NCBI GenBank assembly: GCA_029858565.1
Contig: JAOUEV010000025.1
Span: 1 to 47,631, forward strand
Source: Nitrospirota bacterium
Lineage (GTDB): Bacteria; Nitrospirota; UBA9217
DNA length: 47,631 nucleotides
Direction of reading: 5' to 3'
The notes under the pieces are model-generated. The model saw only the letters and a list, made by a program, of their open reading frames with translations. It was not told where the DNA came from and searched no databases. Both the position numbers and the translations under genes were made by a program. Shown here one piece after another: positions 20,712 to 35,623 of this stretch (positions are counted from its first letter, which is position 1; the number at the start of each line of letters is the position of its first letter).

Positions 20712-20713
20712 AC

Positions 20714-21430
20714 ATGAAGAACTTCTTCCTCTCACTCAAAACTACGGTCTGGACGCTCTTCGGCCTGATCTGCATCTTCTTCCTGGGCTCATACCTCATG
20801 CCGGCCCACCGGGACGTGCACGGCTCCATGAACGACCAGCTGCTGTTCCAATGGGTCTCCGAAACCGCGGTCCTGCACCCCTGGGCAGCGAGCTGGTTCT
20901 TCCTTTCGCTCGCCGGCCTTGCCCTGCTGACCGTGAACACGGTCGTATGCAGTGTACAGGCGATCCGCGGGAAATGGTCGCGCGCGGACTTTCTGCTGCG
21001 CATGGCTCCCCAGATCGTCCACATCGGTTTTCTCTGCATCCTGCTCGCCCATTTTCTCGGGGCGGGCTGGGGTTACCGCTTGGCAGGGTCATTGCCCGTC
21101 GAGATGTCTGCCAGGCTTCCGGACGACCGGGTCCTGTTTCTCAATGATCTTCGTCCCCAGATAGATTCGAGAGGCAGCCTGACGGGTTGGGCAGCTGAGG
21201 TCGTGATATTCGAAAACGGGCAGCGTGTTGCCGAAGGAGTCCTGGGACCGAATGAACCGCTCTTCTACAAAGGCATGGGTGTTTACCTCAAGAGCTTTGA
21301 CCTTCAGGACCGACCGATCGCCCACCTCATGGTGAACCGGGATCCCGGTGCATTTTGGGCACTGTTCGGCTCAGCGCTTTTCATTGTCGGCGCGACAATG
21401 ATCCTCCTGCTCAAGTGGAACAGGGCGTGA
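20714..21430 (+). CDS. Short ResB/CcsB-like cytochrome c biogenesis protein
   Basis: FFLSLKTTV, SWFF...NTVVCS, VHIG, PNEPL.YKG and RDPG motifs; adjacent to ccsA. Confidence 0.8.
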   Translation: MKNFFLSLKTTVWTLFGLICIFFLGSYLMPAHRDVHGSMNDQLLFQWVSETAVLHPWAASWFFLSLAGLALLTVNTVVCSVQAIRGKWSRADFLLRMAPQIVHIGFLCILLAHFLGAGWGYRLAGSLPVEMSARLPDDRVLFLNDLRPQIDSRGSLTGWAAEVVIFENGQRVAEGVLGPNEPLFYKGMGVYLKSFDLQDRPIAHLMVNRDPGAFWALFGSALFIVGATMILLLKWNRA

Positions 21431-21503
21431 TCCGCCGGGCTCCATGCCGTTCTGATCAGGCATGCCGTCGGCCATCCCTCCCGATTGTGCTACACTCACT
21501 GAT

Positions 21504-22547: not shown

Positions 22548-22554
22548 CCGCTGA

Positions 22555-24873
22555 TCACCGGCTCTTTCGATTCAGCAAGAGACCGGCAATGCCCATACCG
22601 ATGATCCCGAGCACTGTGGGTATCGCAACCGCCAGGTATCCGATCAGGACAAAACGATATGCCGGCTTGAAGATGAACTCCACCACATGCCGGCCTTCCG
22701 GCACCTCCACAGCCTTCAATACGCCCATCGCCTTGAGCACCGGGACCTGCTGGCCATCAATCTTCGCAATAAATCCCTCATGATAGGTGTCCGTATACAG
22801 CAGAAATCGCGGACCTTCGGTCTGCGTCTCCAGAACGAGCCTATTCGCCGATTTATGCAGCACCTGTGGCTCCGGGCCATCCCTCGTATCAGGGGCCGGT
22901 CCAGACCGGGATTCCAGCGGCTGAAGGACCAATGACCTATTCCGGACGAGGGCGTCACTTTCCAGAACGATTGTCCCCTGCTCCAGAAGGCTGCCGTATT
23001 CTGTGATGGTCTTCTGGATACTGAAGGCAGAGAACCAGCGGAATTTCCTGCGCATGAGTTGATCAAATCCATCAAGATCGGAGAACCGGTAGTATTCTTT
23101 TGAGACAAACTGCGTGTGCATCGATTGCCAGTGGTCAAAGAAATAGGGCGCATCGATCCGCTTAGCAAGGTAATAATAATCGACACAGCACTCGCCGCCA
23201 AACTGCGGACCCAGGGGTTGTACGCGAAGATACTCCGTTGGACGCTCAAAGGAAAAACCGAACCCGTCGCTATAAGAAAACATGTTGCTTTGCCAGTTAT
23301 GGTATGCCCGCATCCCCGTCAGACGATGGAGTGACAGCGCACCATTGACAAGAAGCAGTGCGAGGAGCACTAGCGGAACAATATGAGCACGCATATCGCT
23401 CCAGCGGGTTGTCAGCATCGGCCAGACGATCAAAGCAGCCATTAGGAAGATCGCGATCAGCGGCCCGAGCCGCTGATCTGCAGGCAGGAAAAACAGGAGC
23501 CCAAGCTGCAAGACCACAAGTACAATCGGTCCGGCAGGGGACAGCGGCCTGCTCAACATGATCAGGGGACGCCGCGCCGCGACAAGGAACCTTCGAACGC
23601 CCAGTGAGGCCAGCACGGAAAAACAGAAGACCAGGAAACTCTCGAAAAACACCCAGGAGCGGATAACCGTGTAGAATGGCGAAATATATCGCATGATCCA
23701 ATACATCGGCGTTGCAGGTCCCACGGCATTGAACGCCATAATGACCGCCGCGGCAAACCAGAAGCCTCCACTGCGGGAGCAGGCAACCAGTTCATAAAGC
23801 GCAAAACCAAGCGCCAGGACTCCCACCATCGGAGCACCGTCACCGTAATCCGCGGTCGGCGTGATGAATAGGTCCTGCACAAGCTGTTTAAACCGCTCGA
23901 CGGCCGTTGCCAGGTCCAGGAAGGGAAGCGCGACGAACTGCTCCGTCTGCTCTGGGCCGGTGTAGCGAGCGATCTGATAATAGTTCGACACGATGTCATG
24001 ATAGATACTGTATGTTGGAAGAATGAGTGCTCCCGCAAGGAGGGCGCCAAGGAGGCAATGCCGGACCAGGAGCCGGTGGTTCACCACGCGGAGAAGTTCA
24101 GGATAATAAACCATCAGTAAAATCAGCAGCGTGACGATAAATGCCGCCAGGTAGGCCGGATAATAAACGTTCATGGAGATCGCAATGATGAGCGCCGCCG
24201 CGCTGATGCGTCCCGCCGTTTGACGCCGCACATAGCGAACGACCGCATAGAGCACCCAGGGAACATATTCAATGATCCCGAGCCGATAGATCTGGGTCGT
24301 CCAATAGCCTGCTTCACCGCAAAAAAGAAGAATCGTGAACATCGCGGTTCCCGCAACGGTGCTTCGCGTTAACTCGCGTACGAAAAGCAGCCCTCCAAAA
24401 GAAAAGAAGACCACCTCGGTAAGATGACAGGCGACGAATATCTGCTTCGGCGGCATATGAGCAATTGTGCCGAGAGCGAACCATATCCAGGCAATAGGAT
24501 TTAGCAGGAGACCATGATTCAACAGGAGATAGAAGGGCTGCCCGCCATAAAGGTATGAATTCCACAGCGGAAGCTCCCCCTGGCGAAAGGATGCGTAGGC
24601 ATAGAGGAACTCGGTAAATTGGGTCAGCGTATCATGGAGAGGAATCCAATTGGGATCCCAAATTGCCCGTCGGTAGAGCAGGAGAAGCAGACCGACGGCG
24701 GCAGGAACAACGAGGAACAGGTGCCGAACAGGCCTATTGTATCGGGATTTGCCCTTTTGCATTCCGAGCTGAAGTCCTTGTCCGGTGGTCGGCAGCCACG
24801 CTCTGAATTTCCTTTGTTCCTCGGGAGGCCCATTTACATGCACGGCGGCCTTCATCCGGCTGATCGTTATCAT
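22555..24873 (-). CDS. YfhO-like GT-C fold membrane glycosyltransferase (copy 2)
   Basis: HD...GELPLWNSYLYGGQPF, about 13 TM segments, and C-terminal DTYHEGFIAKIDG...AVEVPEGRHVVEF. ATG overlaps the upstream TGA. Confidence 0.8.
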   Translation of the reverse strand: MITISRMKAAVHVNGPPEEQRKFRAWLPTTGQGLQLGMQKGKSRYNRPVRHLFLVVPAAVGLLLLLYRRAIWDPNWIPLHDTLTQFTEFLYAYASFRQGELPLWNSYLYGGQPFYLLLNHGLLLNPIAWIWFALGTIAHMPPKQIFVACHLTEVVFFSFGGLLFVRELTRSTVAGTAMFTILLFCGEAGYWTTQIYRLGIIEYVPWVLYAVVRYVRRQTAGRISAAALIIAISMNVYYPAYLAAFIVTLLILLMVYYPELLRVVNHRLLVRHCLLGALLAGALILPTYSIYHDIVSNYYQIARYTGPEQTEQFVALPFLDLATAVERFKQLVQDLFITPTADYGDGAPMVGVLALGFALYELVACSRSGGFWFAAAVIMAFNAVGPATPMYWIMRYISPFYTVIRSWVFFESFLVFCFSVLASLGVRRFLVAARRPLIMLSRPLSPAGPIVLVVLQLGLLFFLPADQRLGPLIAIFLMAALIVWPMLTTRWSDMRAHIVPLVLLALLLVNGALSLHRLTGMRAYHNWQSNMFSYSDGFGFSFERPTEYLRVQPLGPQFGGECCVDYYYLAKRIDAPYFFDHWQSMHTQFVSKEYYRFSDLDGFDQLMRRKFRWFSAFSIQKTITEYGSLLEQGTIVLESDALVRNRSLVLQPLESRSGPAPDTRDGPEPQVLHKSANRLVLETQTEGPRFLLYTDTYHEGFIAKIDGQQVPVLKAMGVLKAVEVPEGRHVVEFIFKPAYRFVLIGYLAVAIPTVLGIIGMGIAGLLLNRKSR

Positions 24874-27068
24874 CTGTATGCATTTCTTATAGTATCGAGC
24901 ACAACATAGCACGCAAGAGACAAAATGAACATTCCCGTTACGCACAGGTAGGCAACCAGTACAAAGCGATATCGCGGTCTGAATAGGAACTCAACAATGT
25001 GCTTACCCGGTTTCAGCCTGACCGCCTTAAGAAATCCCATGCCTTTAATGAGTGCGACGGATTCGCCGTCCACACGCGCTATGAAACCATCATGATACGT
25101 ATCCGTATACAGAAGATAGAGCGGTCGCTCCGCACTGACCGTGAACGCCACGTCGTTTGCCGTTTTATACAGAAGGTTGTACTGTCCCGCCGCCAGGTCT
25201 GCCGGGACGAGCGGTGCGCCCTGCGCGCCCCCCAGACAGCCCGCACCACCTCCCGAGCCCTGCGACGGCACGGGCAGGATCGCAGATCCCAGATAGGGTC
25301 GGTAATCATCAATCCTGCCCACGGCGCTGCAGCCGGAGAATAACCACAGCTTTCGCTGCATCAGGGCATCCACTCCAGGTGCGGCTGCATGATAATACTC
25401 CTTTGAAACGAACAGGGTGTGCGGCGAACCCCAGAGACCGAAATAGTAAGGGCCGTCAATTTTTTCCGCCATATGATAGTTTGTACTGCAGCACTCTCCT
25501 CCAGCTTCCAGCGGCTGAACAACGGTAAATTCCCGGGGGCGGATAAAGTCGAAGGAGAACAGGTTCGTGTAGGAAAACATAGGATATTCGACTTTTACCA
25601 GGGGATTCGTCTCGAGGAGCCATTGGTGATAGCCTCCCATAACAACCAGTAGCGACATGAGCGCTGCCGCTGCGATAGGAGGGACAGAGTATGCTGTGTT
25701 CGATCCATATCGTGCTATCACAACGATCACGGCGATTCCGATAAGACCGATTGTGGAAGTGATCCACCCGGCTTTCCCCAGGACCAGGAACAATAGGAGC
25801 GCCGAACCAGTAAAAGGAACGGTCAATTTATCATAACGCGGTATTTGTACTGCACGGATCATGGCTAAGAGCCGAAGGGCGCCGAGTGAGGACATGATGG
25901 CCAGGCAGAGGATAACGTAGCCGGAAAAAAAAGATGGCGACCGGATAATGCCGTAGTAAGGAATGAGCTTACCGGCAATACTGAAGAATGGGGTCGTATT
26001 CCCCAGATAATGCAGAAACATGAAACAGGTCATGGCAAGCCAGAACAGCGACCTGCGCGAGAAGGACAAGACCTCTATCAGCGCCAGAAGCACCGCACCG
26101 ACGCCGACAAAGGGAAGCGCCTCCCGGTATCCTGACTGCTCGATCCTCATGATACTCTTAACCGACGCCGTATACTGAGGACCGGTCGGTGGCATGGCCG
26201 GCAAGTTGGACCGACCACCCTGCTCCTCCTGTCGCACATCACTGTACCGTGAGACCTGATAATAATTGGCGGTAATATCACGATAGATCAGATATGTTGG
26301 CAGCAACAGGGCGCAGAAAAGTGGAAGCGCAAGAAGTGCGTGCTTCCCCGCTGCAGGAAGATTGACATAATGCCTGACCGTGCGGCTGTAGAATACCAGG
26401 AGACAAATACCAAGCGTTGCGAAAAAAGCCGCCACATAGGACGGATAATAGCTATTCCCGGCTATACCGAGGACTATGGCGACTGCTAATGCATTTTTCG
26501 CTGTCTGGTTCCGAATATAACGAAGAATAAAGAAGAGGCTCCACGGAACAAATGCTATGACGGCAAGCGGATAGACCTGAACCTTCCAGAACGTAGCTTC
26601 ACCGCTAAAGAGCAAGACCAGAAAGCAGATGGCACCAGCATATCGGCTGCGAGTGAGCTGTCGGACAAATGCAAATCCGCCGAATGCAAGGAGGAGCACT
26701 TCGCTGAGATGGTAAGCTGCGAAGATCCGGGGCGGGTCAAGATGCACAACCGTTCCCAGCGCGATCCATATCCAGGCAACAGGGGTGAGCAGAAGGCCGT
26801 GATTCAAATACAAGTAAAAGGGTTGGCCGCCGTACAGGTAGGAATTCCACAGCGGCAGCTCTCCTCGTTGGAATGATGAGAGCGCATAGAGGAACTCGGT
26901 ATATTGCGTCAGCGTATCTCGAACAGGTACCCAGTCGGGATGTAAAAAAGGCTTGCCGCCTATGACCAGAAACACAGCGACCGAAAAGAACATCAAGAGA
27001 TAAGGAGCACGGCGTGCCAGATGGAACATAGGAGAACTTGCCGCTATTTTACCGGTTGACCGTATCAT
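24870..27068 (-). CDS. YfhO-like GT-C fold membrane glycosyltransferase (copy 1)
   Basis: RD...GELPLWNSYLYGGQPF, multi-TM, and DTYHDGFIARVDG...PGKHIVEF. TAATG coupling to the upstream gene. Confidence 0.8.
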   Translation of the reverse strand: MIRSTGKIAASSPMFHLARRAPYLLMFFSVAVFLVIGGKPFLHPDWVPVRDTLTQYTEFLYALSSFQRGELPLWNSYLYGGQPFYLYLNHGLLLTPVAWIWIALGTVVHLDPPRIFAAYHLSEVLLLAFGGFAFVRQLTRSRYAGAICFLVLLFSGEATFWKVQVYPLAVIAFVPWSLFFILRYIRNQTAKNALAVAIVLGIAGNSYYPSYVAAFFATLGICLLVFYSRTVRHYVNLPAAGKHALLALPLFCALLLPTYLIYRDITANYYQVSRYSDVRQEEQGGRSNLPAMPPTGPQYTASVKSIMRIEQSGYREALPFVGVGAVLLALIEVLSFSRRSLFWLAMTCFMFLHYLGNTTPFFSIAGKLIPYYGIIRSPSFFSGYVILCLAIMSSLGALRLLAMIRAVQIPRYDKLTVPFTGSALLLFLVLGKAGWITSTIGLIGIAVIVVIARYGSNTAYSVPPIAAAALMSLLVVMGGYHQWLLETNPLVKVEYPMFSYTNLFSFDFIRPREFTVVQPLEAGGECCSTNYHMAEKIDGPYYFGLWGSPHTLFVSKEYYHAAAPGVDALMQRKLWLFSGCSAVGRIDDYRPYLGSAILPVPSQGSGGGAGCLGGAQGAPLVPADLAAGQYNLLYKTANDVAFTVSAERPLYLLYTDTYHDGFIARVDGESVALIKGMGFLKAVRLKPGKHIVEFLFRPRYRFVLVAYLCVTGMFILSLACYVVLDTIRNAYR

Positions 27069-28507
27069 TATCGCAGCCGTCCCTGCAGGTGCCACCGCGC
27101 GTAAGTCATGCCTGCCTGGAGCCAATACCGTACGTCGGACCAGCTTCGTACCGACGCAATCTGCCGTGCAATGTAGGACGGCCGCAGATAAAAGCTCCGG
27201 GTCAATGCCTTCTGCAGGCGCAGCAGTTCGGCCGCGTCAAAGTGCGCTGTACGCCAGCGAGGGATTGTCCCGAACATCTCGTAATCCTCCCATGTCGCGG
27301 ACGGATCGATCAAGCCGCGCGATTCCATCAATGACCGGACCGGGGTTCCGGGATACGGCACAATGATGGAAACCGACACGAATGTCCAGGGGAGCGTCAT
27401 GATCAGCTCCCTGGTCAAGGCTATATCCGCAGACGTCTCGTCGGGATCGCTGCCGATGATGAAGTTCCCTTCCACGTGCTCGATCCCTGCTTCGCTCGCG
27501 AGCTGCACGGCCTCCCGGACCTGTTCTATCGTGATCCGCTTGCGGATGCGCTCCAGGACCTGCGGACTGCCCGATTCGACACCAAAAGCGACCTTGCGGC
27601 AGCCGCTCTGCTTCATGGCCTGCAGAAGCTTGCGGGATACATGGGTCACCCGGGTGTCACAGCTCCATGAAGGCACGTTTGCACCGGCGAGGATCTCGCA
27701 GATCTCCAGGGTCCGGTCGGGCCGGAGGGTGAATGTGTCGTCGGCAATGATGACATGACCGAAATGGTACTGCTCCATGAATTGGCTGACTTCTTCGCGG
27801 ATGGAGGCAGGGGAGCGGAACCGGACCGTCTCGCCAAAGGTCGCGCGGATCGCGCAGAAGGTACAGGGAAACGGACAACCGCGGGAAGTGAACAGTTCCG
27901 TTGAAAGAGCCTTGTTCGAGAATCCGCGCGAGGAATGACCGGCCTGTTCCGCGTAGGAGATCAGGTCCCGGGCCGGGAACGGCAGCGTGTCAATGTCCTC
28001 GATCAGCGGCCGCGCCGCTTGCCGCACGATCTGGTCACCCGACCGGTGTACCGTGCCCTTGATGCCGTCTACCCTCTTTCCGGCAGCCACGTTGCGGCAT
28101 ATCTCGGCGAAGGTCTCCTCGCCCTCTCCGAAGGCAGCAATATCGATGAACGGAAATTCGCGAAGGGTTTCCGCCGGAAGACCGTTCACATGGGGTCCAC
28201 CGACGACCGTGGTGATGGAGGGATGGCTGGTTTTGACCATTTCGCAGATACGGCCGGTGTTGATGATCGTCGGTGTGACGCTTGAGATTCCAATGATAAG
28301 CGGCCGCGTCTTCTCAACAAGGTCCAGCAGCTTCCTGTCCGAATAGGCCTCGACCTCGAAGTCCACAAGGGACACAGAAAATCCATCGCGCCGGAGATAG
28401 GAGGCGAGATAAGCGAGGTTCATGGGCCTCGTATGGCTGAGCAGGGATACGTGCTGCAGAGGGTCCGGAGGCCGGATAAGGAGGATATGTGCAGTTGTGC
28501 TCTTCAT
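27068..28507 (-). CDS. Cobalamin-binding radical SAM enzyme (class B methyltransferase-like)
   Basis: N-terminal B12-binding segment (LAYLASYL, GIS, VVGGPH); SRGCPFPCTFC; DDTF; GVESGS; PYPGT. Confidence 0.92.
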   Translation of the reverse strand: MKSTTAHILLIRPPDPLQHVSLLSHTRPMNLAYLASYLRRDGFSVSLVDFEVEAYSDRKLLDLVEKTRPLIIGISSVTPTIINTGRICEMVKTSHPSITTVVGGPHVNGLPAETLREFPFIDIAAFGEGEETFAEICRNVAAGKRVDGIKGTVHRSGDQIVRQAARPLIEDIDTLPFPARDLISYAEQAGHSSRGFSNKALSTELFTSRGCPFPCTFCAIRATFGETVRFRSPASIREEVSQFMEQYHFGHVIIADDTFTLRPDRTLEICEILAGANVPSWSCDTRVTHVSRKLLQAMKQSGCRKVAFGVESGSPQVLERIRKRITIEQVREAVQLASEAGIEHVEGNFIIGSDPDETSADIALTRELIMTLPWTFVSVSIIVPYPGTPVRSLMESRGLIDPSATWEDYEMFGTIPRWRTAHFDAAELLRLQKALTRSFYLRPSYIARQIASVRSWSDVRYWLQAGMTYARWHLQGRLR

Positions 28508-28509
28508 GA

Positions 28510-29268
28510 TCAACGATGGCCCGGCTTTCTCGCTATGGCATAGACCGACAGCCCGACGGGAAGACGGACATGCCGAAGCAGCATGTTCTCGAACCGCATG
28601 ACCGCAAGCAGAATACGGTTGATCGGGCCGGGAGGCATCCATGCATCAGAAGGTGCTTGCCTGTCGGACCCGCGAAGCGGCAGGCGCTTGCTGATCAGCC
28701 GATAGGCCGCCAGGAGCGGAAAGAGCAACCCCACCCGGTACGTCGCCCTCTCAATGATCAACCCCGCGTCCTTCAGCAGTCCGGCTATCTCCCCCCGGCA
28801 ATAACGCCGACGCGTGAACACTGCCTCGTCATGGCTGCTCCTCAGAAACTCCAGGGCGGGAACCTGCAGGATCACGATCCCCCCGGGCCGGAGTGCTTTC
28901 GCAAAGCGCTCCAGGACCATCTTCTCGTCCGTTACGTGGCGGTGATAGAGCACATCGATCGATGTGATGACATCGTAGCGGCCCTCGCCCAGGTTTGCGG
29001 TCGTGAGATCCTTGACCGTGACCCGCGTCAGCCCCCGCTCCCTGCAGAACGACACGGCCTGGTCGGAACTGTCGATCCCTTCTGATTCTCCATAGGCAGA
29101 CAAGAGCTGAAGCAGCCGGCCGGTCCCACAGCCGGCATCAAGCATGACGAGCGGGCCTTTTGACCGGAATTCCTCATCAACTGCCTCAAGGATCAGCTCG
29201 TGAAGAGACCGGTACCACCAGTGCCGTTCTTCGACCGCGAACATTCTGCCGTATTCTTCCTGGCGCAT
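28510..29268 (-). CDS. Class I SAM-dependent methyltransferase
   Basis: EERHWWY, LDAGCGTG, DVLYH and LRPGG motifs; a type common in surface-glycan loci. Confidence 0.9.
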   Translation of the reverse strand: MRQEEYGRMFAVEERHWWYRSLHELILEAVDEEFRSKGPLVMLDAGCGTGRLLQLLSAYGESEGIDSSDQAVSFCRERGLTRVTVKDLTTANLGEGRYDVITSIDVLYHRHVTDEKMVLERFAKALRPGGIVILQVPALEFLRSSHDEAVFTRRRYCRGEIAGLLKDAGLIIERATYRVGLLFPLLAAYRLISKRLPLRGSDRQAPSDAWMPPGPINRILLAVMRFENMLLRHVRLPVGLSVYAIARKPGHR

Positions 29269-29277
29269 GCCGCCTCC

Positions 29278-30396
29278 TCAGGCTTTCCTGAAGAACGACC
29301 GGATCTCTGTGATCACTTCACCAACCTCGGCTTCGGTCAGGCCGGGAAAGAGCGGCAGGGACAGTATCTCGCCGGCAAGCCGCTCGGTCACCGGCAGGGC
29401 TCCCGGCTCCAGGCCGAGGAACCGGTAGCCGCTCATCAAATGCACCGGCACGGGATAATTGATCTTTGTCTCGATGCCCTTCTCCCGCAGGAAGGACAGG
29501 AGCCGGTCGCGTGAGCCCGTCCGGATGGTGTATGCGTAGAACTGATGGGTGCGGTCGCTGCCGGTGATCGGCAAAACGATATCGCCGACATCGGCCAGCT
29601 CCCTGGTGTAATTTTCCGCGATAGCTCGCCGCCTGGCGACCTGGTCGTCAAGGGTGTCAAGCCTGAGGTCAAGGATCGCGGCCTGCACTTCGTCAAGCCG
29701 CGAGTTGTATCCTTCCTCCAGGGAGTAGTAGGCATCCCGCATGCCGTAGAAGCGGAGCCTCCGCACGCGATCGGCAGACTCCGGGTCGTTCGTGACCACC
29801 ATCCCGCCGTCACCGTAACCACCCAGCACCTTTGTAGGATAGAACGAGAAGGCCGCAAGGTCTCCGAGGCTTCCGACACGTCTTCCCGAGAAGGTAGCGC
29901 CCGCGGCTTGTGCGCAATCCTCAAGAACGTGCAGTTTCTTTGACTGCGCTATAGCGTTGATCGCGGGCATGTCCGCAGGCTGGCCGAACAGATGTACCGG
30001 CACGATCGCCCGGGTTCTCGGCGTGATCGCCGCTTCGATCAGCCGGACATCCAGCAGGAACGTGTCTTCCTCCACGTCCACGAAGACCGGCATCGCGCCG
30101 GCGGCCCGGATCGCCGCGACAGTCGGCACAGCCGTGTTGGCGACGGTGATCACCTCGTCGCCCAAACCGATCCCGAGCGCCTTCATCGCAAGAAACAGAG
30201 CATCGGTTCCGGAATTGACGCCGATGCCGTGCCGCGCCCCGCAGTAGCCGGCAAAGCGTCGCTCGAACCGCTCTCCCTCCGGCCCCAGGATCAGACGGCC
30301 CGAGGAGAACACCCGGTCCACGCGCTCCAGGATGCGGGTCCGGTCAGATGCATAGTCGTCGAGGTACCGCCATAGGGGGATCCGGATCGGTTGCAT
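29278..30396 (-). CDS. DegT/DnrJ/EryC1/StrS sugar aminotransferase (DnrJ/EvaB-like)
   Basis: NSGTDAL, EDCAQA, SFYPTKVLGGYGDGG, RRLRFYGM and NSRLDEVQAAIL motifs. Confidence 0.92.
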   Translation of the reverse strand: MQPIRIPLWRYLDDYASDRTRILERVDRVFSSGRLILGPEGERFERRFAGYCGARHGIGVNSGTDALFLAMKALGIGLGDEVITVANTAVPTVAAIRAAGAMPVFVDVEEDTFLLDVRLIEAAITPRTRAIVPVHLFGQPADMPAINAIAQSKKLHVLEDCAQAAGATFSGRRVGSLGDLAAFSFYPTKVLGGYGDGGMVVTNDPESADRVRRLRFYGMRDAYYSLEEGYNSRLDEVQAAILDLRLDTLDDQVARRRAIAENYTRELADVGDIVLPITGSDRTHQFYAYTIRTGSRDRLLSFLREKGIETKINYPVPVHLMSGYRFLGLEPGALPVTERLAGEILSLPLFPGLTEAEVGEVITEIRSFFRKA

Positions 30397-30397
30397 G

Positions 30398-31384
30398 TCA
30401 CTCCTCCAGCACTATGCTGCGGCATCCCGACCACAGCAGTTCAGCATCCGCAGCAAGTCGGCGGGCCGCTTCGTGGGCCCTGCTGAAATCCTGTTGTCCC
30501 AGGATCAGACCGGCCGCATGTTCGATCGTCAATTGAAAATGGTCGGCCCGCGGCGTTTCAATGCGGTTCACCTGCGATCCGGTCGTGACCTCAATGATGC
30601 CTGCGTGGTCCGCCGGTGTCGTATATGCCCGCTCCAGCCTGATCTTGCCCTTGTCACCGATGAGCTCGTACCAGCATTCATACTGCTGCTCGAAGCCGAT
30701 CGAGCAGAAGAAGCTTTCACCTTCCGTGGACATGCCGCTGGCCTGGAGGGACACGTTCACTCCTCTGCGGTACGACCGGTACCCGGTAACGTCACGCAAT
30801 GCACCGGCGAGATGGTAGCGGGCAGCGCTGAGCGGATAGCGCGCCTGGTCGTTGAACGCGCCTCCGCCCGGGCCGGAGCTGAGACGGAAGTCCCCTGGCG
30901 CGGCCAGCAGAAACCCGAAGGACGACCGGAAAGAACGAAGCCGGCCGATGTCCCCGCGCGCAACGATCTCCCGGATCATCCGGTGCTGGGGATGATGCAC
31001 ATACATGATATTCTCGAACAGCAGCAGTCCCTGCGACTCTGCGAATGCCGTCATCCTCTTGACGCTGTCAAGCGTCAGTCCGAGCGGTTTCTCGCAGATC
31101 ACGTGCTTTCCCGCAGCGAGCGCTTTCAGCGCCCATTCCTCGTGCAGGTGGTTCGGTACCGAGATATAGACGGCATTCACGAGCTCATGCCGGAGCAGGT
31201 CATCATAGCTTACGGCATCGTAATCGGTTCCGGGAAAGAACTGACGGGCCTTCTCAACGGTCCTGCTGGCGCAAGCCACAAGCTTCGCGTTCGCGGCCCT
31301 GAGCAGGCCCGGCAGGAACCTTCTCCGGGCAATATCCGAACATCCAAGGATGCCGATCCCGAGTGTGCGGTCGATCATCTTCAT
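30398..31384 (-). CDS. Gfo/Idh/MocA oxidoreductase, NDP-hexose 3-ketoreductase-like (SpnN/KijD10 type)
   Basis: GILGCSDIARRRFLP, HVICEKPL, ENIMYVHHPQH, GGGAFNDQARYP and RAYTTP motifs. Confidence 0.85.
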   Translation of the reverse strand: MKMIDRTLGIGILGCSDIARRRFLPGLLRAANAKLVACASRTVEKARQFFPGTDYDAVSYDDLLRHELVNAVYISVPNHLHEEWALKALAAGKHVICEKPLGLTLDSVKRMTAFAESQGLLLFENIMYVHHPQHRMIREIVARGDIGRLRSFRSSFGFLLAAPGDFRLSSGPGGGAFNDQARYPLSAARYHLAGALRDVTGYRSYRRGVNVSLQASGMSTEGESFFCSIGFEQQYECWYELIGDKGKIRLERAYTTPADHAGIIEVTTGSQVNRIETPRADHFQLTIEHAAGLILGQQDFSRAHEAARRLAADAELLWSGCRSIVLEE

Positions 31385-31426
31385 AGGGTTTATGTTCGCG
31401 GCTCCGGGTCTGTCCCTGCCCCTGCT

Positions 31427-32983
31427 CTACAAGAGTGTGCCCAGTATGCTGCGGGCACAGGAGTTGACCTGCTCACCGAACAACAGGAACCAGCGGACCT
31501 CCTCCAGGGACATCCAGCGGAACTCAGGAGGGACATCCAGCTCCGCGCCTTCCGGCAGCAGCAGGATGCGGTGCAGATGCTCTTCGCGAAAGAACCGCGC
31601 ACCCTCCTCGGATTGACGGCTCTCCTGAAGCACCGGGAACCTTACCGGACGCATGAACTCCTCGAAGAGAAAGGGTTTCCGAAGCCTTCCGTCATCAGAG
31701 TAGTTCTCCTGGGTGAACTGCACCGTCGGTCCGATCTGGACGATGTTCCTGTTCCCGACCTCAGCTTTTGCCTGCATGAGCAGGCTGGTCCGCTCGCCGT
31801 CCTGGCGCAACAGCAGCCCGATGATCCCTGTCCCGACATTGTCCAGGATCGGCTGGCTCCAGGTCGCTACCTCGCGGGACTGAGATGTCACCTTGATACC
31901 GATGATCTTGAAGAACTTTCCCTGCTTGTGGGAATATGATCCAGACCGGTCCATTTCCCAGTCTGAAAGCCTGTCGAGCCCGATCCGCTTCTGAAAGATG
32001 TGGTTTCGCGCTTTCATGTCATCGAGCCACTGAATGATCTGGTCCAGACCGGCAAGGTCGCGCTCACCCTTCTCCCGCTCCCCGGTCCTAACGGACGACT
32101 GCGGGTCGCAAGAACACCTGCCGGGCTCAGATAACAGTGTGTTGTCCGATCCGGCGTTGATCACGCGCAGGTGCGCCCTTGTCCGCAGTGAGCCGAACAG
32201 GCTGGAGAGAACGCTTCGGGCGCAGGCGTTGACCAGATTGTCCTTTTGCACCAGCCGTGCTATCTGGCGAAGGGTAAGCCAGATAAAACCATCCGGAAGG
32301 TCGTTGGTTTCCTGGTCCTGAGCAAGCACGATCATATTCCTGTTGGACTTGAACAGGAACCTTCCGCCATCCTCTGTCTGAAGTTTGGCATAGAGCCGCC
32401 GGGACCGCTCGGGTTCCATGAACTGCGCAAGGAACGGCGGCAGGGATCCGCCGTGCACGCGCGTGTAATTGCTGTAGGTCGCCTGGACCGTGGGTGACAG
32501 CTGCACGAAGTGCAGGTTGCCAGGCTCCTCTTTGGCCTGAAGACAGAAGTGCAATACCCCGTTGATCCTTTTTGCGAGGATCCCCAGTATGCCGATCTCC
32601 GGCTGATCAATTATCGGCTGGTCCCATTCCAGTTCACCGTACTCTGTCCGGTGCCTCACCGCCAGTCCGGTGATCGAGAAGAATCGCCCGCTGCGATGGG
32701 CTATATTGCCGGACGATGGATCGCGTGCCCACTGGTCGAGCTGGTCGAGCGGGACAACATCAGTACGCAGCCGTGCCTGGAGGCGCTGCTCGCAGATCCA
32801 CCGGTCCACATGATCATCGTCATGGAGACTGTCGCGCGTCAGCCGGGACACGACGACATCGACAATGGTGTTTTGTCCGAAGCCGAGTGCCGCGACCATG
32901 CTCAATTCAGGTTCCTGCTGCAGCCGCGATGCGATGAGCTCGCGGATCTCCGAGGTGACCGGTATGAACTCCTTCTTCGACAT
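31427..32983 (-). CDS. NDP-hexose 2,3-dehydratase (EvaA/SpnO/TylX3 family)
   Basis: Duplicated Nudix-like halves: HRSGRFFSI, WDQPIIDQPEIGILG, QAKEEPGN, QLSPTVQAT.SNY, QTEDGGRF; second half WSQPIL, GPTVQ, QSEEGARFF. Confidence 0.93.
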   Translation of the reverse strand: MSKKEFIPVTSEIRELIASRLQQEPELSMVAALGFGQNTIVDVVVSRLTRDSLHDDDHVDRWICEQRLQARLRTDVVPLDQLDQWARDPSSGNIAHRSGRFFSITGLAVRHRTEYGELEWDQPIIDQPEIGILGILAKRINGVLHFCLQAKEEPGNLHFVQLSPTVQATYSNYTRVHGGSLPPFLAQFMEPERSRRLYAKLQTEDGGRFLFKSNRNMIVLAQDQETNDLPDGFIWLTLRQIARLVQKDNLVNACARSVLSSLFGSLRTRAHLRVINAGSDNTLLSEPGRCSCDPQSSVRTGEREKGERDLAGLDQIIQWLDDMKARNHIFQKRIGLDRLSDWEMDRSGSYSHKQGKFFKIIGIKVTSQSREVATWSQPILDNVGTGIIGLLLRQDGERTSLLMQAKAEVGNRNIVQIGPTVQFTQENYSDDGRLRKPFLFEEFMRPVRFPVLQESRQSEEGARFFREEHLHRILLLPEGAELDVPPEFRWMSLEEVRWFLLFGEQVNSCARSILGTLL

Positions 32984-32984
32984 T

Positions 32985-33959
32985 TCAGGCCTGGTAATCC
33001 TTCAGGTATTTGATCTGGTCCCGCTTGTCCTCACCCGCGAGCTGCTTGTCCCGTATAACGAACTGCGGGTCCTTGTTCAGCGAGAGATATATCCTGCCGA
33101 CGTATTCACCCAGCAGGCTTATCGCGAGCAGGACCATGCCGCGAAATACCATGTTCGCGAACATCAAAGACTCGTAATCCGTGAGAAGCCGCTTCGTGCT
33201 CAGATCATCGAATACTTTATACAATCCGTAGAAAAGCCCGATGACCGAGATAGCAGCGCCCACGAACCCGATGATTCGGAGCGGAACGAGCGAAAAGCTG
33301 ACGATCATATTCCCCCAGAGCGCCACCAGCTTCGCAAGAGTGTACCCGGATTCGCTGTAGGTCCTCTTCCTGTGCAGAAGCTGAACTTTGCCGATATTGT
33401 CGGTCGAGCGAAGGATAATGGCGTCAAGATAAGGGTCGGGGCCGATGTATTTGATTATCTCCTTCATAAGGAAACGATTGACAATCTTAAAGCTCGAAAG
33501 GTACAGGTCCCCTGGTTTCTTCAGAATGACGTTTGCCATCTTGTTGTGCACTTTACTGCCAAAATTCCTGAACCAGCTATCCTTCTTTGACGCGTAATAC
33601 GCATAGACCACGTCGTACCCTTTTTTAATCTCCTCCACCAGCTTGCCGACCTCTTCCGGAGGATTCTGAAAGTCGTCATCCATGATTACACAATAATCGC
33701 CGTTTACGTGGTTCAGACCGGCGAGCACGGCATTGTGTTCGCCGAAGTTCTTCGAAAGTTTTATATAGGATATCTGATCGGGATAGTCCGCGTGGAGCTT
33801 CTTGCAGATGAGATCTGAACCATCTCGGCTGCCGTCGTTCACCAGCACGATATCAAGCTTGTAATGTTTTGTGTACAGATCAATCAACACGGAGCAGAGA
33901 TGCCCAATCGTCTGTTCGCCGTTATAAACGGGAATAACAATGGAAAGTGTGATGGACAT
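32985..33959 (-). CDS. GT2 polyprenyl-phosphate glycosyltransferase (ArnC/GtrB-like)
   Basis: SIVIPVYN, VNDGSRD, LSKNFGEHNA, MDDDFQNPP, two C-terminal TMs and GEYVGRIY; AGGAGG RBS. Confidence 0.92.
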   Translation of the reverse strand: MSITLSIVIPVYNGEQTIGHLCSVLIDLYTKHYKLDIVLVNDGSRDGSDLICKKLHADYPDQISYIKLSKNFGEHNAVLAGLNHVNGDYCVIMDDDFQNPPEEVGKLVEEIKKGYDVVYAYYASKKDSWFRNFGSKVHNKMANVILKKPGDLYLSSFKIVNRFLMKEIIKYIGPDPYLDAIILRSTDNIGKVQLLHRKRTYSESGYTLAKLVALWGNMIVSFSLVPLRIIGFVGAAISVIGLFYGLYKVFDDLSTKRLLTDYESLMFANMVFRGMVLLAISLLGEYVGRIYLSLNKDPQFVIRDKQLAGEDKRDQIKYLKDYQA

Positions 33960-34094
33960 GGAGAGACCCCTCCTCGGCGCGCGGGAACGCGCAATCTGTC
34001 CACGGAGGCACGAAAGCCCCGCGGCGTTCCGTCGCAAAGAAGCGCGAAAGAAAATCTGTTCGTAATGCGATTTCAGGCGGAACGGAGTGCGAAG

Positions 34095-34556
34095 TTATAC
34101 GAAACGGAGCGGAGGAGAAAGGCCGATATGAAGATAGTGAGAACTGTTGGAAAGCCGATGGCGCAGGTCCTGAACGACCATGTATTCCCTGACAGCAGGA
34201 ACGAACTCTTCGTCGTTTTCCAGGAGAACTGGTGATGTCTGTTCAGGTGCTGGCAGCTCCTGGGTATGCCGCAGAACCGCCCGTTTTTTCTTGATAAGGA
34301 AAAAATCCGGGTCCTTCTCGTTCGGAGCCACTTCCAATGGTGCGGTCGTTGCGCCTACGCGATCGTCACTGATGACCGAGGAAAGAACGATGTTCACCCA
34401 CACAATACCGATCGAGATGTCCTTGCCCTCGTCGTCGAAGGACAACGGCTCCAGACTCCTGATCGCCGATGTGGACAGATAGATCGGCGAAAACGCGTAG
34501 ATGCTGTACAGCACCAGGACCGCCGTACGTATCATATGTTTTGCCGTCCAATTCAT
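34095..34556 (-). CDS. Hypothetical protein upstream of the sugar operon
   Basis: 153-aa ORF with an N-terminal hydrophobic segment and C-terminal GLSPP. Confidence 0.5.
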   Translation of the reverse strand: MNWTAKHMIRTAVLVLYSIYAFSPIYLSTSAIRSLEPLSFDDEGKDISIGIVWVNIVLSSVISDDRVGATTAPLEVAPNEKDPDFFLIKKKRAVLRHTQELPAPEQTSPVLLENDEEFVPAVREYMVVQDLRHRLSNSSHYLHIGLSPPLRFV

Positions 34557-34686
34557 TATGTCATATTTTACACCTGCTCGAAGTTGTCAGCAACAGATTT
34601 AATTGCTAGACCCGGCAGGTTCTGCTTTTACCAAGAACGACTCATTCTTGAGCTTTTCCCCGCTATCGTGTATCATCACTTCATCC

Positions 34687-35622: not shown

Positions 35623-35623
35623 T

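What the first reader, a model, noticed from the sequence alone, without database searches (positions are those of the whole stretch)
22555..33959. Antibiotic-type 2-deoxy/amino-sugar pathway wired to a lipid-carrier GT2 and two GT-C transferases
Seen: eight tightly coupled minus-strand genes, in order GT2 (ArnC/GtrB-like), NDP-hexose 2,3-dehydratase, SpnN/KijD10-like ketoreductase, DnrJ/EvaB-like aminotransferase, SAM methyltransferase, B12 radical SAM enzyme and two YfhO-like proteins. Known: the 2,3-dehydratase/3-ketoreductase/aminotransferase set makes 2,6-dideoxy and amino-trideoxy sugars for actinomycete natural products and is usually paired with GT1 enzymes and PKS/NRPS. GT2 plus GT-C instead defines extracytoplasmic glycosylation via polyprenyl-P-sugar. 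Inference: an unusual methylated 2-deoxy(amino)sugar is loaded on undecaprenyl phosphate and transferred to LPS, protein or another envelope acceptor in a Gram-negative anaerobe. I do not know of a characterised system with this combination.
Basis: partly seen in the sequence, partly recalled or inferred. Interest (0 to 1): 0.8.

Follow-up and report, generated by a model that had tools for sequence, protein, structure and literature searches.

The report
Lipid-linked deoxy-aminosugar envelope glycosylation operon
A nine-gene operon in a Nitrospirota bacterium appears to make an unusual methylated 2-deoxy amino sugar, load it on the membrane lipid carrier and pass it to two large membrane transferases that decorate the cell surface; the sugar-making core recurs in related bacteria, yet no system of this kind has been studied.

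Summary
Eight translationally coupled minus-strand genes (22555-33959) encode an ArnC/GtrB-type GT2, an EvaA-type 2,3-dehydratase, a KijD10-like ketoreductase, a DegT aminotransferase, a class I methyltransferase, a B12 radical SAM enzyme and two paralogous YfhO-like membrane proteins. A ninth small conserved gene lies upstream (34095-34556).

The operon is not a one-off. A GT2-dehydratase-(ketoreductase)-aminotransferase-methyltransferase cassette stands in 10 of the 11 other dehydratase-bearing genomes, out of 401 sampled in the phylum. Its 3' end is a variable slot. It holds this YfhO subfamily, another YfhO type, a PMT_2 protein, TPR membrane proteins, or nothing.

The dehydratase belongs to a large clade of Gram-negative anaerobes. 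It is 52-65% identical to that clade and about 37% to Streptomyces enzymes.

The best reading is an Arn-like route, in three steps:
- a dTDP-linked N-methylated amino-trideoxyhexose is made in the cytoplasm;
- it is put on undecaprenyl phosphate;
- it is transferred in the periplasm by the YfhO-like pair.

The acceptor, the flippase, the ketoreductase's position and the radical SAM chemistry remain unknown. Comparison with solved GT-C structures could not be run. Seven full-text searches found no characterised system. I rate it a new variant of a known kind.

The parts
34095..34556 (-). Small conserved ORF (153 aa, one N-terminal hydrophobic helix), 135 nt upstream of the GT2. Function unknown. 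Probable first gene of the unit.
   Evidence: Translation. No Pfam family. tblastn finds it at the same position upstream of the GT2 in G001 (38% identity, E 3e-17) and G025 (32%, 7e-12). Matches in G260 and G316 are weak, at E 0.014 and 0.049.
32985..33959 (-). Polyprenyl-phosphate glycosyltransferase of family GT2 (ArnC/GtrB type, 324 aa). It has a DDD motif at residue 94 and C-terminal hydrophobic helices.
   Evidence: PF00535 at 106 bits. NCBIfam ArnC 166.8 bits, below the equivalog cut-off of 529, and PgfS 143 bits. Full-length matches 5-303 to solved ArnC (9hwj, E 4e-40) and GtrB (5ekp, E 6e-37). Hydropathy peaks at 212-242 and 265-283, and the DDD motif.
31427..32983 (-). NDP-hexose 2,3-dehydratase (EvaA type, 518 aa, two Nudix-like halves in one chain).
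   Evidence: PF03559 at 450 bits, two domains. EvaA 4j7g at E 1e-89. Residues aligned with EvaA E139 and E190 are E153 and E204; their catalytic role is taken from PMC8987622 (passages).
30398..31384 (-). GFO/IDH/MocA sugar ketoreductase (328 aa). Its closest solved relative is KijD10. The position it reduces is not settled.
   Evidence: PF01408 and PF22725. KijD10 3rbv at E 1e-50 and 176 bits over residues 8-324; the next entry scores 100 bits.
29278..30396 (-). PLP-dependent sugar aminotransferase (DegT/DnrJ/EryC1, 372 aa), probably acting at C-3.
   Evidence: PF01041 at 396 bits. An SFYPTK motif with lysine stands at residue 184. Best solved relatives score 350-264 bits: 7b0d, 2oga, 3frk, 5u1z and WbpE. 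Perosamine synthase scores 235, ArnB 205 and 2po3 170. Which position each of these enzymes aminates is recalled, not from a call.
28510..29268 (-). Class I SAM-dependent methyltransferase (252 aa). N-methylation of the amino sugar is inferred.
   Evidence: Methyltransf_23/25/31/11/12 at 48-52 bits. Similarity to the sugar N,N-dimethyltransferases 3bxo and 3pfg is weak, E 1e-4, and covers the SAM-binding fold only. It is kept next to the aminotransferase in 8 of 8 cassettes that are complete on the fetched DNA.
27068..28507 (-). Cobalamin-dependent (class B) radical SAM enzyme (479 aa) of no named subfamily. An optional tailoring step; C-methylation is inferred.
   Evidence: B12-binding at 84 bits and Radical_SAM at 87 bits. 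CPFPCTFC at residue 211. The best NCBIfam hits all fall far below their cut-offs: HpnJ 191.6 against 577.6, BchE 168.6 against 481. Solved relatives are AprD4 6fd2 at E 1.5e-28 and TokK at 1.4e-17.
24870..27068 (-). YfhO-like polytopic membrane protein 2 (732 aa), a paralog of the next gene.
   Evidence: 41% identical to the 772-aa protein over 731 residues, E 5e-175. About 12 hydrophobic segments, then a ~220-aa soluble part and a last helix. Pfam YfhO reaches only 17.4 bits, E 0.0015. Its start overlaps the radical SAM stop as TAATG.
22555..24873 (-). YfhO-like polytopic membrane protein 1 (772 aa), the presumed GT-C transferase. A conserved Asp81 lies in the loop after helix 1, followed by a GELPLWNSYLYGGQPFY motif.
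   Evidence: Pfam YfhO covers the C-terminal 70 residues at 25.7 bits, below the gathering score of 28.5. Atlas model: TM 0.72 and 0.67 to YfhO clusters over residues 53-755. The N-terminal core aligns to a protein whose residues 41-405 match the Pfam YfhO model, with hhalign 98.2% and E 4e-14. D81, W104, N105, G111 and P113 are kept in at least 90% of 41 aligned YfhO-type proteins. ATGA overlap with the gene before it.

Best explanation
This is a self-contained operon for periplasmic decoration of the cell envelope with a rare cationic deoxy sugar. It is built on the same logic as the Arn (aminoarabinose) and CsbB/YfhO systems.

Inferred steps:
1. RmlA and RmlB, encoded elsewhere in the genome, supply dTDP-4-keto-6-deoxyglucose.
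2. The EvaA-type dehydratase removes the 2-hydroxyl and gives the 3,4-diketo-2,6-dideoxy sugar.
3. The DegT aminotransferase aminates it, most probably at C-3.
4. The KijD10-like reductase reduces the remaining keto group. This step is absent from some sister loci.
5. The class I methyltransferase methylates the amine.
6. The B12 radical SAM enzyme adds a further modification, probably a C-methyl group, in loci that carry it.
7. The ArnC/GtrB-type GT2 transfers the finished sugar to undecaprenyl phosphate on the cytoplasmic face.
8. An unidentified flippase turns the lipid-linked sugar over.
9. The two YfhO-like paralogs transfer the sugar to one or two acceptors on the periplasmic side. LPS is the first candidate. 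The acceptor is not known.

What is shown is gene content, coupling, homology, kept catalytic residues and recurrence of the cassette. All chemistry, the lipid carrier step and the acceptor are inferred.
For: Operon structure: the gaps between genes are -4 to 9 nt, except for one of 42 nt.

GT2: full-length alignment, membrane helices included, to solved ArnC and GtrB at E 1e-37 to 1e-40.

Dehydratase: two PF03559 domains, and both EvaA catalytic Glu positions are kept.

Aminotransferase: the PLP lysine motif is present. Its best solved relatives are DesV, QdtB, WlaRG and WbpE type enzymes.

Precursor supply: rmlA scores 473 bits and rmlB 488 bits, both over their cut-offs, on contig C5. LpxC is present, so the cell makes lipid A.

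Recurrence: the dehydratase was found in 12 of 401 genomes of the phylum, this one included.
- In 10 of the other 11, a 58-72% identical GT2 stands directly before it.
- 8 of those 10 also show the aminotransferase (63-66% identity) and the methyltransferase (44-53%) on the fetched stretch. The other two contigs end inside the cluster.

A membrane transferase follows the cassette repeatedly:
- a YfhO-like 829-aa protein in G316, with hhalign 99.5% and E 9e-23;
- a PMT_2 protein in G251;
- this YfhO subfamily in G062 and G063.

The closest relative of the first YfhO-like protein (52% identity) shares a contig length of 50576 with the closest dehydratase (64%) and the closest GT2 (77%). Each was seen on exactly one contig.

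This YfhO subfamily also sits with a GT2, a DegT aminotransferase and a B12 radical SAM enzyme in two loci that use other sugar routes: L022 with an SDR, and L030 with a kinase, a nucleotidyltransferase and a transketolase.
Against: - No flippase gene is in the operon. The only GtrA domain in the genome is the C-terminal part of another GT2.
- Neither YfhO-like protein reaches Pfam's gathering score. A profile of the subfamily finds nothing among solved structures. The fold comparison could not be run.
- The YfhO pair is not tied to the cassette. It was found in 0 of 60 relatives. These include G001, G020, G025 and G031, which do carry the cassette.
- The same-genus genome has an unrelated 660-aa membrane ORF at that place.
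- Two cassettes, in G025 and G374, have no large membrane protein next to them.
- The ketoreductase's nearest solved relative reduces C-3, the position I assign to the aminotransferase. One of the two assignments must differ from its nearest relative.
- From recall, characterised ArnC/GtrB-type enzymes use UDP-sugars, not dTDP-sugars.
- There are no expression data.
Confidence: 0.6

Rival explanations
1. The machinery is the same but the sugar differs. The ketoreductase reduces C-3 first, as KijD10 and SpnN do. The aminotransferase then acts at C-4, giving an N-methylated 4-amino-2,4,6-trideoxyhexose.
For: The ketoreductase matches the C-3 ketoreductase KijD10 over its full length, at E 1e-50, far above any other solved protein. 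The gene order dehydratase-reductase-aminotransferase fits this sequence of steps.
Against: Sister cassettes in five genomes run dehydratase-aminotransferase with no reductase. Those genomes hold no close reductase elsewhere; the best match is E 6e-17, against about 1e-100 in reductase-bearing loci. Aminotransferases from loci with and without the reductase are equally similar (62-68% identity) and intermix in a tree. The nearest solved aminotransferases are C-3 enzymes, an assignment I recall; the scores are.
Confidence: 0.25
2. The sugar genes feed an ordinary cytoplasmic (Leloir) glycan such as an O-antigen or capsule. The two YfhO-like proteins are neighbours with an unrelated task.
For: The YfhO pair is missing from relatives that keep the cassette. 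The genome has one Wzy_C O-antigen-ligase-like gene and rml genes.
Against: The only glycosyltransferase in the unit is of the ArnC/GtrB type, which makes polyprenyl-phosphate monosaccharides. It is the most constant partner of the dehydratase, in 10 of 11 genomes. The YfhO genes overlap their upstream genes. The window holds no Wzx, Wzy, priming transferase or further glycosyltransferase among the ORFs scanned.
Confidence: 0.1
3. This is a secondary-metabolite sugar cassette, and the product glycosylates a small molecule.
For: Characterised 2,3-dehydratases come from antibiotic pathways (PMC8987622, passages). 90 of the 93 plasmid records with a homolog are from actinomycetes, 83 of them Streptomyces.
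Against: Those homologs are only 36-39% identical, whereas the Gram-negative clade is 52-65% identical. None of the scanned ORFs in the 47.6-kb window is a GT1, PKS or NRPS gene. The flanks are housekeeping genes (mnmA, ResB-like, ABC permeases, ksgA). The same-genus genome has the ResB-like and mnmA flank too.
Confidence: 0.03
4. The polyprenyl-phosphate sugar, or a glycolipid made directly by the GT2, is itself the end product. The YfhO-like proteins act on something else.
For: Cassettes in G025 and G374 have no adjacent large membrane protein.
Against: Six of eight complete sister cassettes are followed by a large polytopic membrane protein. A transferase encoded elsewhere could serve the other two.
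Confidence: 0.07

Closest known systems
Arn pathway of Enterobacteria and Pseudomonas (ArnB aminotransferase, ArnC GT2, ArnT GT-C, ArnE/F flippase): L-Ara4N on lipid A
   Same: Both combine a DegT aminotransferase, an ArnC-type GT2 and a GT-C-type membrane transferase in one operon. The GT2 aligns over its full length with solved ArnC at E 4e-40. ArnB is a 205-bit relative of the aminotransferase. One sister locus (G251) carries a PMT_2 protein, the family I recall for ArnT. The product would again be a cationic sugar.
   Different: - The sugar comes from a dTDP-6-deoxyhexose through a 2,3-dehydratase, not from UDP-glucuronate.
- None of the eight genes is an ArnA- or ArnD-like formyltransferase, decarboxylase or deformylase.
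- A methyltransferase and a B12 radical SAM enzyme stand in their place.
- The transferase is YfhO-like, not ArnT-like.
- The GT2 scores 166.8 bits against the ArnC equivalog cut-off of 529.
CsbB / GtcA / YfhO three-component glycosylation of teichoic acids in Bacillus, Staphylococcus and Listeria
   Same: Both pair a GT-A-type polyprenyl-phosphate sugar synthase with a YfhO-family GT-C (PMC8035078, passages).
   Different: Those systems transfer GlcNAc made by housekeeping enzymes, in Gram-positive cells, onto teichoic acids, with a GtrA-family flippase. Here the host makes lipid A and the sugar has its own five-enzyme pathway. There are two divergent YfhO paralogs, and no stand-alone GtrA was found.
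Pgf system of Streptococcus mutans (PgfS GT2, PgfM1 and PgfM2 membrane proteins, PgfE epimerase): protein glycosylation
   Same: The GT2 scores 143 bits to the PgfS model. That system has one GT2 with two large membrane partners and a sugar-modifying enzyme; this description of it is recalled.
   Different: The score is far below the PgfS cut-off of 500. The sugar chemistry is different. The acceptor here is unknown.
EvaA-EvaE (epivancosamine), daunosamine and megosamine pathways, and KijD10 of actinomycetes
   Same: The dehydratase is EvaA-type with both catalytic Glu positions kept. The aminotransferase follows the dehydratase directly in sister loci, as EvaB follows EvaA. The reductase is KijD10-like.
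   Different: - Identity to actinomycete dehydratases is only 36-39%.
- There is no GT1, aglycone pathway or EvaC/TylC3-type C-methyltransferase.
- The sugar is handed to a lipid-carrier GT2.
- In six related genomes the dehydratase is split into two ORFs.

Membership tests
NDP-hexose 2,3-dehydratase (PF03559, EvaA type) | Two tandem Hexose_dehydrat (Nudix-like) domains | tested here: met
   450 bits overall. The two domains score 249.5 and 206.1 bits, against a cut-off of 25.
NDP-hexose 2,3-dehydratase (PF03559, EvaA type) | Catalytic glutamates of pocket A (EvaA E139 and E190; role from PMC8987622) | tested here: met
   They align with E153 and E204 of the window protein.
KijD10/SpnN-type sugar 3-ketoreductase (GFO/IDH/MocA) | Full-length similarity to KijD10, with the EKP and GGGA..D...YP motifs | tested here: met
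   E 1e-50 over residues 8-324, with both motifs aligned. That these motifs hold the catalytic residues is recalled.
KijD10/SpnN-type sugar 3-ketoreductase (GFO/IDH/MocA) | Reduction at C-3 of the 3,4-diketo sugar | not testable with these tools
   Comparative data raise doubt. Sister cassettes lack the reductase while keeping an equally similar aminotransferase.
DegT/DnrJ/EryC1 sugar aminotransferase | Family domain, with the PLP lysine rather than the histidine of the dehydrases | tested here: met
   396 bits. SFYPTK at residue 184. The lysine-versus-histidine rule is from PMC8987622.
DegT/DnrJ/EryC1 sugar aminotransferase | C-3 versus C-4 regiospecificity | tested here: inconclusive
   Scores grade from 350-264 bits for enzymes I recall as C-3 specific to 235-88 bits for C-4 enzymes. 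No reference tree with characterised enzymes could be built.
Class B (cobalamin) radical SAM enzymes | N-terminal B12-binding domain plus a radical SAM core with CxxxCxxC | tested here: met
   84 and 87 bits. CPFPCTFC at residue 211.
Named class B radical SAM subfamilies (HpnJ, BchE, PhpK, HpnR, AprD4, KedN5 and others) | Score over the NCBIfam cut-off | tested here: not met
   The best hit is HpnJ at 191.6 bits against 577.6. All 25 listed of the 28 matching families score below their cut-offs.
Polyprenyl-phosphate GT2 (ArnC/GtrB/DPMS type) | GT-A domain with a DXD motif plus C-terminal membrane helices, alignable over the whole length with solved members | tested here: met
   Residues 5-303 align to ArnC 10-311 and GtrB 25-328. 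DDD at residue 94 and hydrophobic peaks at 212-283.
ArnC proper (NF007986) | Equivalog cut-off of 529 bits | tested here: not met
   166.8 bits.
YfhO family (PF09586) | Pfam gathering score of 28.5 bits | tested here: not met
   25.7 bits for the 772-aa protein and 17.4 bits for the 732-aa protein, C-terminal part only. Relatives in the same subfamily reach 29-34 bits.
YfhO family (PF09586) | Homology of the membrane core and overall architecture: polytopic N-terminal part, large extracytoplasmic domain, last helix | tested here: met
   The subfamily profile aligns to residues 49-384 of P0022 at hhalign 98.2% and E 4e-14. That region matches Pfam YfhO positions 30-383 at 83 bits. The Atlas model gives TM 0.72 and 0.67 to YfhO clusters. 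13 of the 15 next-best representatives scanned carry a Pfam YfhO match.
GT-C fold glycosyltransferases | Structural match of the membrane core to solved GT-C enzymes, with an acidic residue in the first outer loop | tested here: inconclusive
   D81 in the loop after helix 1 is kept in at least 90% of 41 sequences. No model could be made. The profile finds no solved chain. hhalign to a PMT_2 protein gives no signal, at probability 0.3%. That YfhO is GT-C is from the literature (PMC8035078).
Three-component transmembrane glycosylation system (GT-A, flippase, GT-C) | A dedicated GtrA-type or ArnE/F-type flippase | tested here: not met
   None is among the operon's genes. The single GtrA domain in the genome is fused to another GT2. 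ArnE/F-type proteins were not searched for in the rest of the genome.

The most novel reading that the evidence does not exclude
A modular envelope-decoration system spans the phylum and probably reaches Geobacter relatives. Undecaprenyl phosphate would carry a 2-deoxy sugar, which would be the first lipid-carrier-linked 2,6-dideoxy sugar. The sugar would be an N-methylated, optionally radical-SAM C-methylated, 3-amino-2,3,6-trideoxyhexose. An exchangeable slot for GT-C enzymes (two YfhO types, PMT_2, TPR-bearing membrane proteins) would direct the same cationic sugar to different acceptors such as lipid A, LPS core or surface proteins. It would be a functional counterpart of aminoarabinose modification in anaerobes, with N-methylation taking the role that N-formylation has in the Arn pathway.
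Probability: 0.3. Interest if true: 0.8.

Novelty: new variant of a known kind. Interest (0 to 1): 0.62.

Why it matters
Sugars made by 2,3-dehydratases are treated in the literature as ornaments of antibiotics (PMC8987622). Here the same chemistry is wired to the lipid-carrier route that Gram-negative bacteria use to remodel their surface. The wiring recurs in many uncultured anaerobes.

If confirmed, it would matter in five ways:
- It adds a new sugar class to the known undecaprenyl-phosphate donors.
- It gives a first function to YfhO-type proteins in LPS-bearing bacteria.
- It offers a natural test bed for how GT-C enzymes are exchanged to retarget one donor.
- It provides a new class B radical SAM activity on a sugar.
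- It supplies enzymes, notably a dTDP-sugar-accepting ArnC-like GT2, that could be used in glycoengineering.

Tried and rejected
No fold search was made.
- The Atlas could not read the 660-aa membrane ORF of G001.

**Searches that returned nothing**
- A profile of the YfhO subfamily against solved structures gave only chance antibody hits, at E 0.03 or worse.
- hhalign of the YfhO alignment gave no signal against a PMT_2 protein (probability 0.3%), a TPR membrane protein (0.4%) and the G001 660-aa ORF (1.7%).
- Relaxed Pfam scans of those membrane proteins found no family. Calling them GT-C would be a guess.
- Rfam found nothing in 21000-36000.
- The promoter scan was at chance level: 7 sites found against 6.8 expected. 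Terminator-like sites numbered 20 against 11.8 expected, none informative.

**Expression and read data**
- No RNA holder is listed.
- Reads of a second study (X2) hold a roughly 95% similar strain. They cover both flanks and 27476-36000 and show no cover on 22670-27475, which holds the two YfhO-like genes. No contig joins across that stretch, so nothing is concluded.

**Cluster look-up and literature**
- The cluster look-up for the three proteins on the 50576-nt contig gave no accession numbers, so adjacency there rests on contig length alone.
- Literature searches found no characterised counterpart: YfhO with 3-dehydratase, 0 papers; YfhO, GT-C and undecaprenyl; 3-dehydratase, EvaA and Geobacter; 7B0D; polyprenyl phosphate, GT-C, aminotransferase and Nitrospir; 3-dehydratase, O-antigen, dideoxy and 3-ketoreductase; ArnC, Geobacter, Nitrospira, Thermodesulfovibrio and EvaA.
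- Supplementary files were not consulted.

**Idea considered and dropped**
- A hopanoid link through the HpnJ-like score of the radical SAM enzyme was dropped. The score is a third of the cut-off, and the GT2 is not HpnI-like: only HpnB appears, at 18.8 bits.

Full report
**1. What is in the sequence**

Between a convergent mnmA gene (21462-22547, + strand) and two ABC permease genes (from 34603, + strand) lie eight minus-strand genes.

Pfam and NCBIfam give the following, in order of transcription:

| Gene | Coordinates | Assignment |
|---|---|---|
| GT2 | 33959-32985 | PF00535; best models ArnC 166.8 bits and PgfS 143 bits |
| Dehydratase | 32983-31427 | NDP-hexose 2,3-dehydratase, PF03559, 450 bits, two domains |
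| Ketoreductase | 31384-30398 | GFO/IDH/MocA oxidoreductase |
| Aminotransferase | 30396-29278 | DegT/DnrJ/EryC1, 396 bits |
| Methyltransferase | 29268-28510 | class I SAM methyltransferase |
| Radical SAM enzyme | 28507-27068 | B12-binding plus radical SAM |
| Membrane protein 2 | 27068-24870 | 732 aa, YfhO-like |
| Membrane protein 1 | 24873-22555 | 772 aa, YfhO-like |

- All eight can start at ATG. The successive gaps are 1, 42, 1, 9, 2, -1 (TAATG) and -4 (ATGA) nt.
- The two large proteins are paralogs, 41% identical over 731 residues.
- A ninth ORF of 153 aa with one hydrophobic helix (34556-34095) lies 135 nt upstream. tblastn finds it at the same place in two relatives, at E 3e-17 and 7e-12.
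- One contig of a DNA run spans 20000-36000 with two differences. That run may be the source of the assembly.

**2. The individual enzymes**

- **Dehydratase.** It matches EvaA (4j7g) at E 1e-89. The residues aligned with EvaA E139 and E190 are glutamates E153 and E204. The passages I read of a review name those two EvaA residues as essential (PMC8987622).
- **Reductase.** It matches the sugar 3-ketoreductase KijD10 (3rbv) over its full length, at E 1e-50 and 176 bits. The next solved protein scores 100 bits.
- **Aminotransferase.** It has the SFxxxK lysine motif. It is closest to 7b0d, 2oga, 3frk, 5u1z and WbpE, at 350-264 bits. Perosamine synthase, ArnB and 2po3 score 235, 205 and 170. From recall, the first group aminates C-3 and the second C-4.
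- **Methyltransferase.** Its similarity to any solved enzyme is limited to the SAM-binding fold. The match to the sugar N,N-dimethyltransferases DesVI and TylM1 is E 1e-4.
- **Radical SAM enzyme.** It has CPFPCTFC at residue 211. It reaches no named subfamily: the best is HpnJ at 191.6 bits against a cut-off of 577.6. Its solved relatives are AprD4 and TokK.
- **GT2.** It aligns from residue 5 to 303 with solved ArnC (E 4e-40) and GtrB (E 6e-37). It has a DDD motif and C-terminal hydrophobic helices.

**3. Are the two large proteins YfhO-type?**

The direct Pfam match is weak. It covers the last ~70 residues only, at 25.7 and 17.4 bits, below the gathering score of 28.5. Four further lines support membership.

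- **Conserved motif.** In an alignment with 39 other proteins, most of which carry a precomputed YfhO assignment, the motif GELPLWN.Y..GG.PF and the preceding Asp81 are kept in at least 90% of sequences.
- **Profile search.** A profile of the subfamily searched against 1.84 billion representatives finds 27,025 proteins at E 0.001 or better. Of the 15 best-scoring full-length representatives I scanned, 13 have a Pfam YfhO match.
- **Membrane core.** One member, P0022, matches the N-terminal membrane part of the Pfam model: residues 41-405 against positions 30-383, at 83 bits. The subfamily profile aligns to exactly that region at hhalign 98.2% and E 4e-14.
- **Predicted structure.** The Atlas's own model of the 772-aa protein superposes on YfhO clusters at TM 0.72 and 0.67 over residues 53-755.

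Hydropathy shows a polytopic N-terminal part, a soluble stretch of about 220 residues and a final helix. Asp81 lies in the loop after helix 1.

That YfhO proteins are GT-C transferases using C55-P-sugars comes from the literature (PMC8035078, passages). The profile finds no solved chain.

**4. How rare is this YfhO subfamily?**

- Only about 14 close relatives appear among 5.8 billion proteins.
- There are five full-length representative clusters above 979 bits and eight fragments (162-429 bits). The next full-length protein scores 183 bits.
- It was found in 0 of 60 relatives of the window's genome at E 1e-20.

**5. Conservation of the gene set**

The window's genome shares its phylum with MAGs titled Nitrospirae. 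The phylum sample contains the contig already reached through locus L023's genome.

The dehydratase was found in 12 of 401 sampled genomes of the phylum, the window's included. Among the other 11:

- In 10, a GT2 58-72% identical to the window's stands directly before the dehydratase. The exception, G108, has a distant dehydratase-reductase-aminotransferase cluster with CMP-sugar genes.
- In 8 of the 10, the aminotransferase (63-66% identity) and the methyltransferase (44-53%) follow on the fetched DNA. In the other two the contig ends inside the cluster.
- The reductase is present in the five cassettes from the window's own family: G001, G025, G260, G251 and G031.
- The reductase is absent from G374, G056, G316 and G064. 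It is also absent from G062, a genome outside the 401 sampled. In these five the aminotransferase follows the dehydratase directly.
- The radical SAM enzyme (57-60% identity) is present in G260 and G251, and in G031 as a broken copy. It is also present in G062.

What follows the cassette differs from genome to genome:

| Genome | What follows the cassette |
|---|---|
| G316 | an 829-aa YfhO-like protein of another subfamily, hhalign 99.5%, E 9e-23 |
| G062 | the window's subfamily plus an 824-aa protein 48% identical to that of G316 |
| G251 | a PMT_2 protein, inserted between the aminotransferase and the methyltransferase |
| G260, G056, G031 | polytopic proteins with C-terminal TPR repeats (in pieces in G031) |
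| G001 | an unassigned ORF of up to 660 aa with nine hydrophobic segments |
| G025, G374 | unrelated genes |

G001 is of the same genus as the window's genome and has the same ResB-like and mnmA flank. Relative to it, the window's genome carries the radical SAM gene and the YfhO pair where G001 has another membrane protein.

**6. Evidence beyond the phylum**

- The 120 best dehydratase relatives are 52-65% identical. The named ones are Geobacter, Geomonas, Citrifermentans, Geomobilimonas, Geobacteraceae, Desulfuromonadaceae and Desulfuromonadales.
- Streptomyces plasmid homologs are 36-39% identical.
- The 120 best GT2 relatives are 57-77% identical. They include Geobacter, Geotalea, Thermodesulfovibrio and Nitrospirae records.
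- 19 exact contig lengths, besides the window's own, occur in both lists. This indicates, indirectly, that the GT2-dehydratase pair is widespread.
- One NCBI contig length, 50576, is shared by the best relatives of the GT2 (77%), the dehydratase (64%) and the 772-aa protein (52%). Each was seen on exactly one contig.

The window's YfhO subfamily also occurs with a GT2, a DegT aminotransferase and a B12 radical SAM enzyme in two loci with other sugar routes:

- L022 runs GT2, methyltransferase, radical SAM, SDR epimerase/dehydratase, aminotransferase, YfhO-like.
- L030 runs B12 radical SAM, transketolase halves, SDR, a short GT2, epimerase, GHMP kinase, aminotransferase, NUDIX, nucleotidyltransferase, YfhO-like.

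**7. Which sugar?**

- rmlA and rmlB are present on another contig, so dTDP-4-keto-6-deoxyglucose is available.
- In the reductase-less cassettes the aminotransferase must take the dehydratase product itself. Those five genomes hold no close reductase elsewhere: the best match is E 6e-17.
- Aminotransferases from cassettes with and without the reductase are equally similar to the window's. They do not separate in a maximum-likelihood tree of 11 sequences, in which forks are weakly supported and three outgroups sit on long branches.
- Together with the nearest solved relatives, this favours amination at C-3, as in the EvaA/EvaB pair.
- The KijD10-like reductase then acts either on the remaining 4-keto group, which would be new for its family, or competes for the diketo sugar. 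The alternative is reduction at C-3 followed by amination at C-4, and it stays open.
- N-methylation by the methyltransferase and C-methylation by the radical SAM enzyme are inferences from family membership only.

**8. How it most likely works**

The nucleotide sugar is finished in the cytoplasm. The GT2 transfers it to undecaprenyl phosphate. The lipid-linked sugar is flipped. The two YfhO-like proteins pass it to periplasmic acceptors.

- The genome has LpxC (two copies), four PMT_2 proteins and one Wzy_C protein, so LPS is a possible acceptor.
- The TPR-bearing membrane proteins in sister loci would rather suggest proteins as acceptors.
- No flippase is evident. The only GtrA domain in the genome is the C-terminal part of another GT2.

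I put 0.6 on this general mechanism. The rivals are a Leloir-type glycan with unrelated neighbours, a secondary metabolite, and a lipid-linked end product. All are weaker, for the reasons given with each rival explanation.

**9. Comparison and novelty**

The logic is that of the Arn pathway and of CsbB/GtcA/YfhO. It differs in five ways:

- the sugar route runs through an EvaA-type 2,3-dehydratase;
- a methyltransferase and a class B radical SAM enzyme stand where Arn has formyl chemistry;
- the host makes lipid A and the transferase is YfhO-type;
- there is a paralogous transferase pair;
- the transferase slot is exchangeable.

Seven full-text searches found no characterised system with this combination. 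Supplements and subscription journals were not covered. I rate it a new variant of a known kind, with interest 0.62.

The bold reading is a modular, widespread cationic-sugar decoration of anaerobe envelopes, with the first lipid-carrier-linked 2-deoxy sugar. The evidence does not exclude it, and I give it 0.3.

Noticed in passing
L063 6102-7776 (G001); also G251, G374, G056, G316 and G203: In six related genomes the 2,3-dehydratase is hit as two separate open frames. The N-half and the C-half are each about 250-300 aa, with a stop between them. In the window it is one 518-aa chain. This may be a naturally split, heterodimeric form of an enzyme whose second half is a vestigial copy.
   Followed up: partly
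L068 9135-16041 (G031): The whole cassette in G031 is broken into several frames, affecting the GT2, the dehydratase, the aminotransferase and the radical SAM gene. This is either a decaying copy or indel errors of the assembly.
   Followed up: no
window 22670-27475: A roughly 95% similar strain in a run of another study covers both flanks and the sugar genes, but shows no contig over the two YfhO-like genes and the 3' part of the radical SAM gene. No contig bridges the gap, so nothing can be concluded.
   Followed up: partly
window 8877-13382: A 1501-aa protein made of HEAT repeats lies in a stretch of lower G+C (0.48-0.52, against about 0.60 around it).
   Followed up: no
window 43711-46062: A 783-aa protein consists almost wholly of ankyrin repeats (Ank_2, 266 bits). 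This is unusual for a free-living bacterium.
   Followed up: no
window 616-1770: A RuBisCO large-chain-like protein (PF00016, 94.5 bits) stands next to a sulphur-transport membrane protein. It is probably a RuBisCO-like protein rather than a carboxylase.
   Followed up: no
L023 3412-8474 (G064): Downstream of the YfhO-like gene and a distant B12 radical SAM gene lie two paralogous ~700-aa membrane proteins. They carry a weak HTH_31 match, and one has a galactose-binding-like C-terminus.
   Followed up: no
window 30395-31939 (+ strand): A 514-aa open frame lies antisense to the reductase and dehydratase genes. I did not scan it against Pfam. The minus-strand genes it overlaps have strong family matches, so I read it as a shadow frame of G+C-rich DNA, not a gene.
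   Followed up: no
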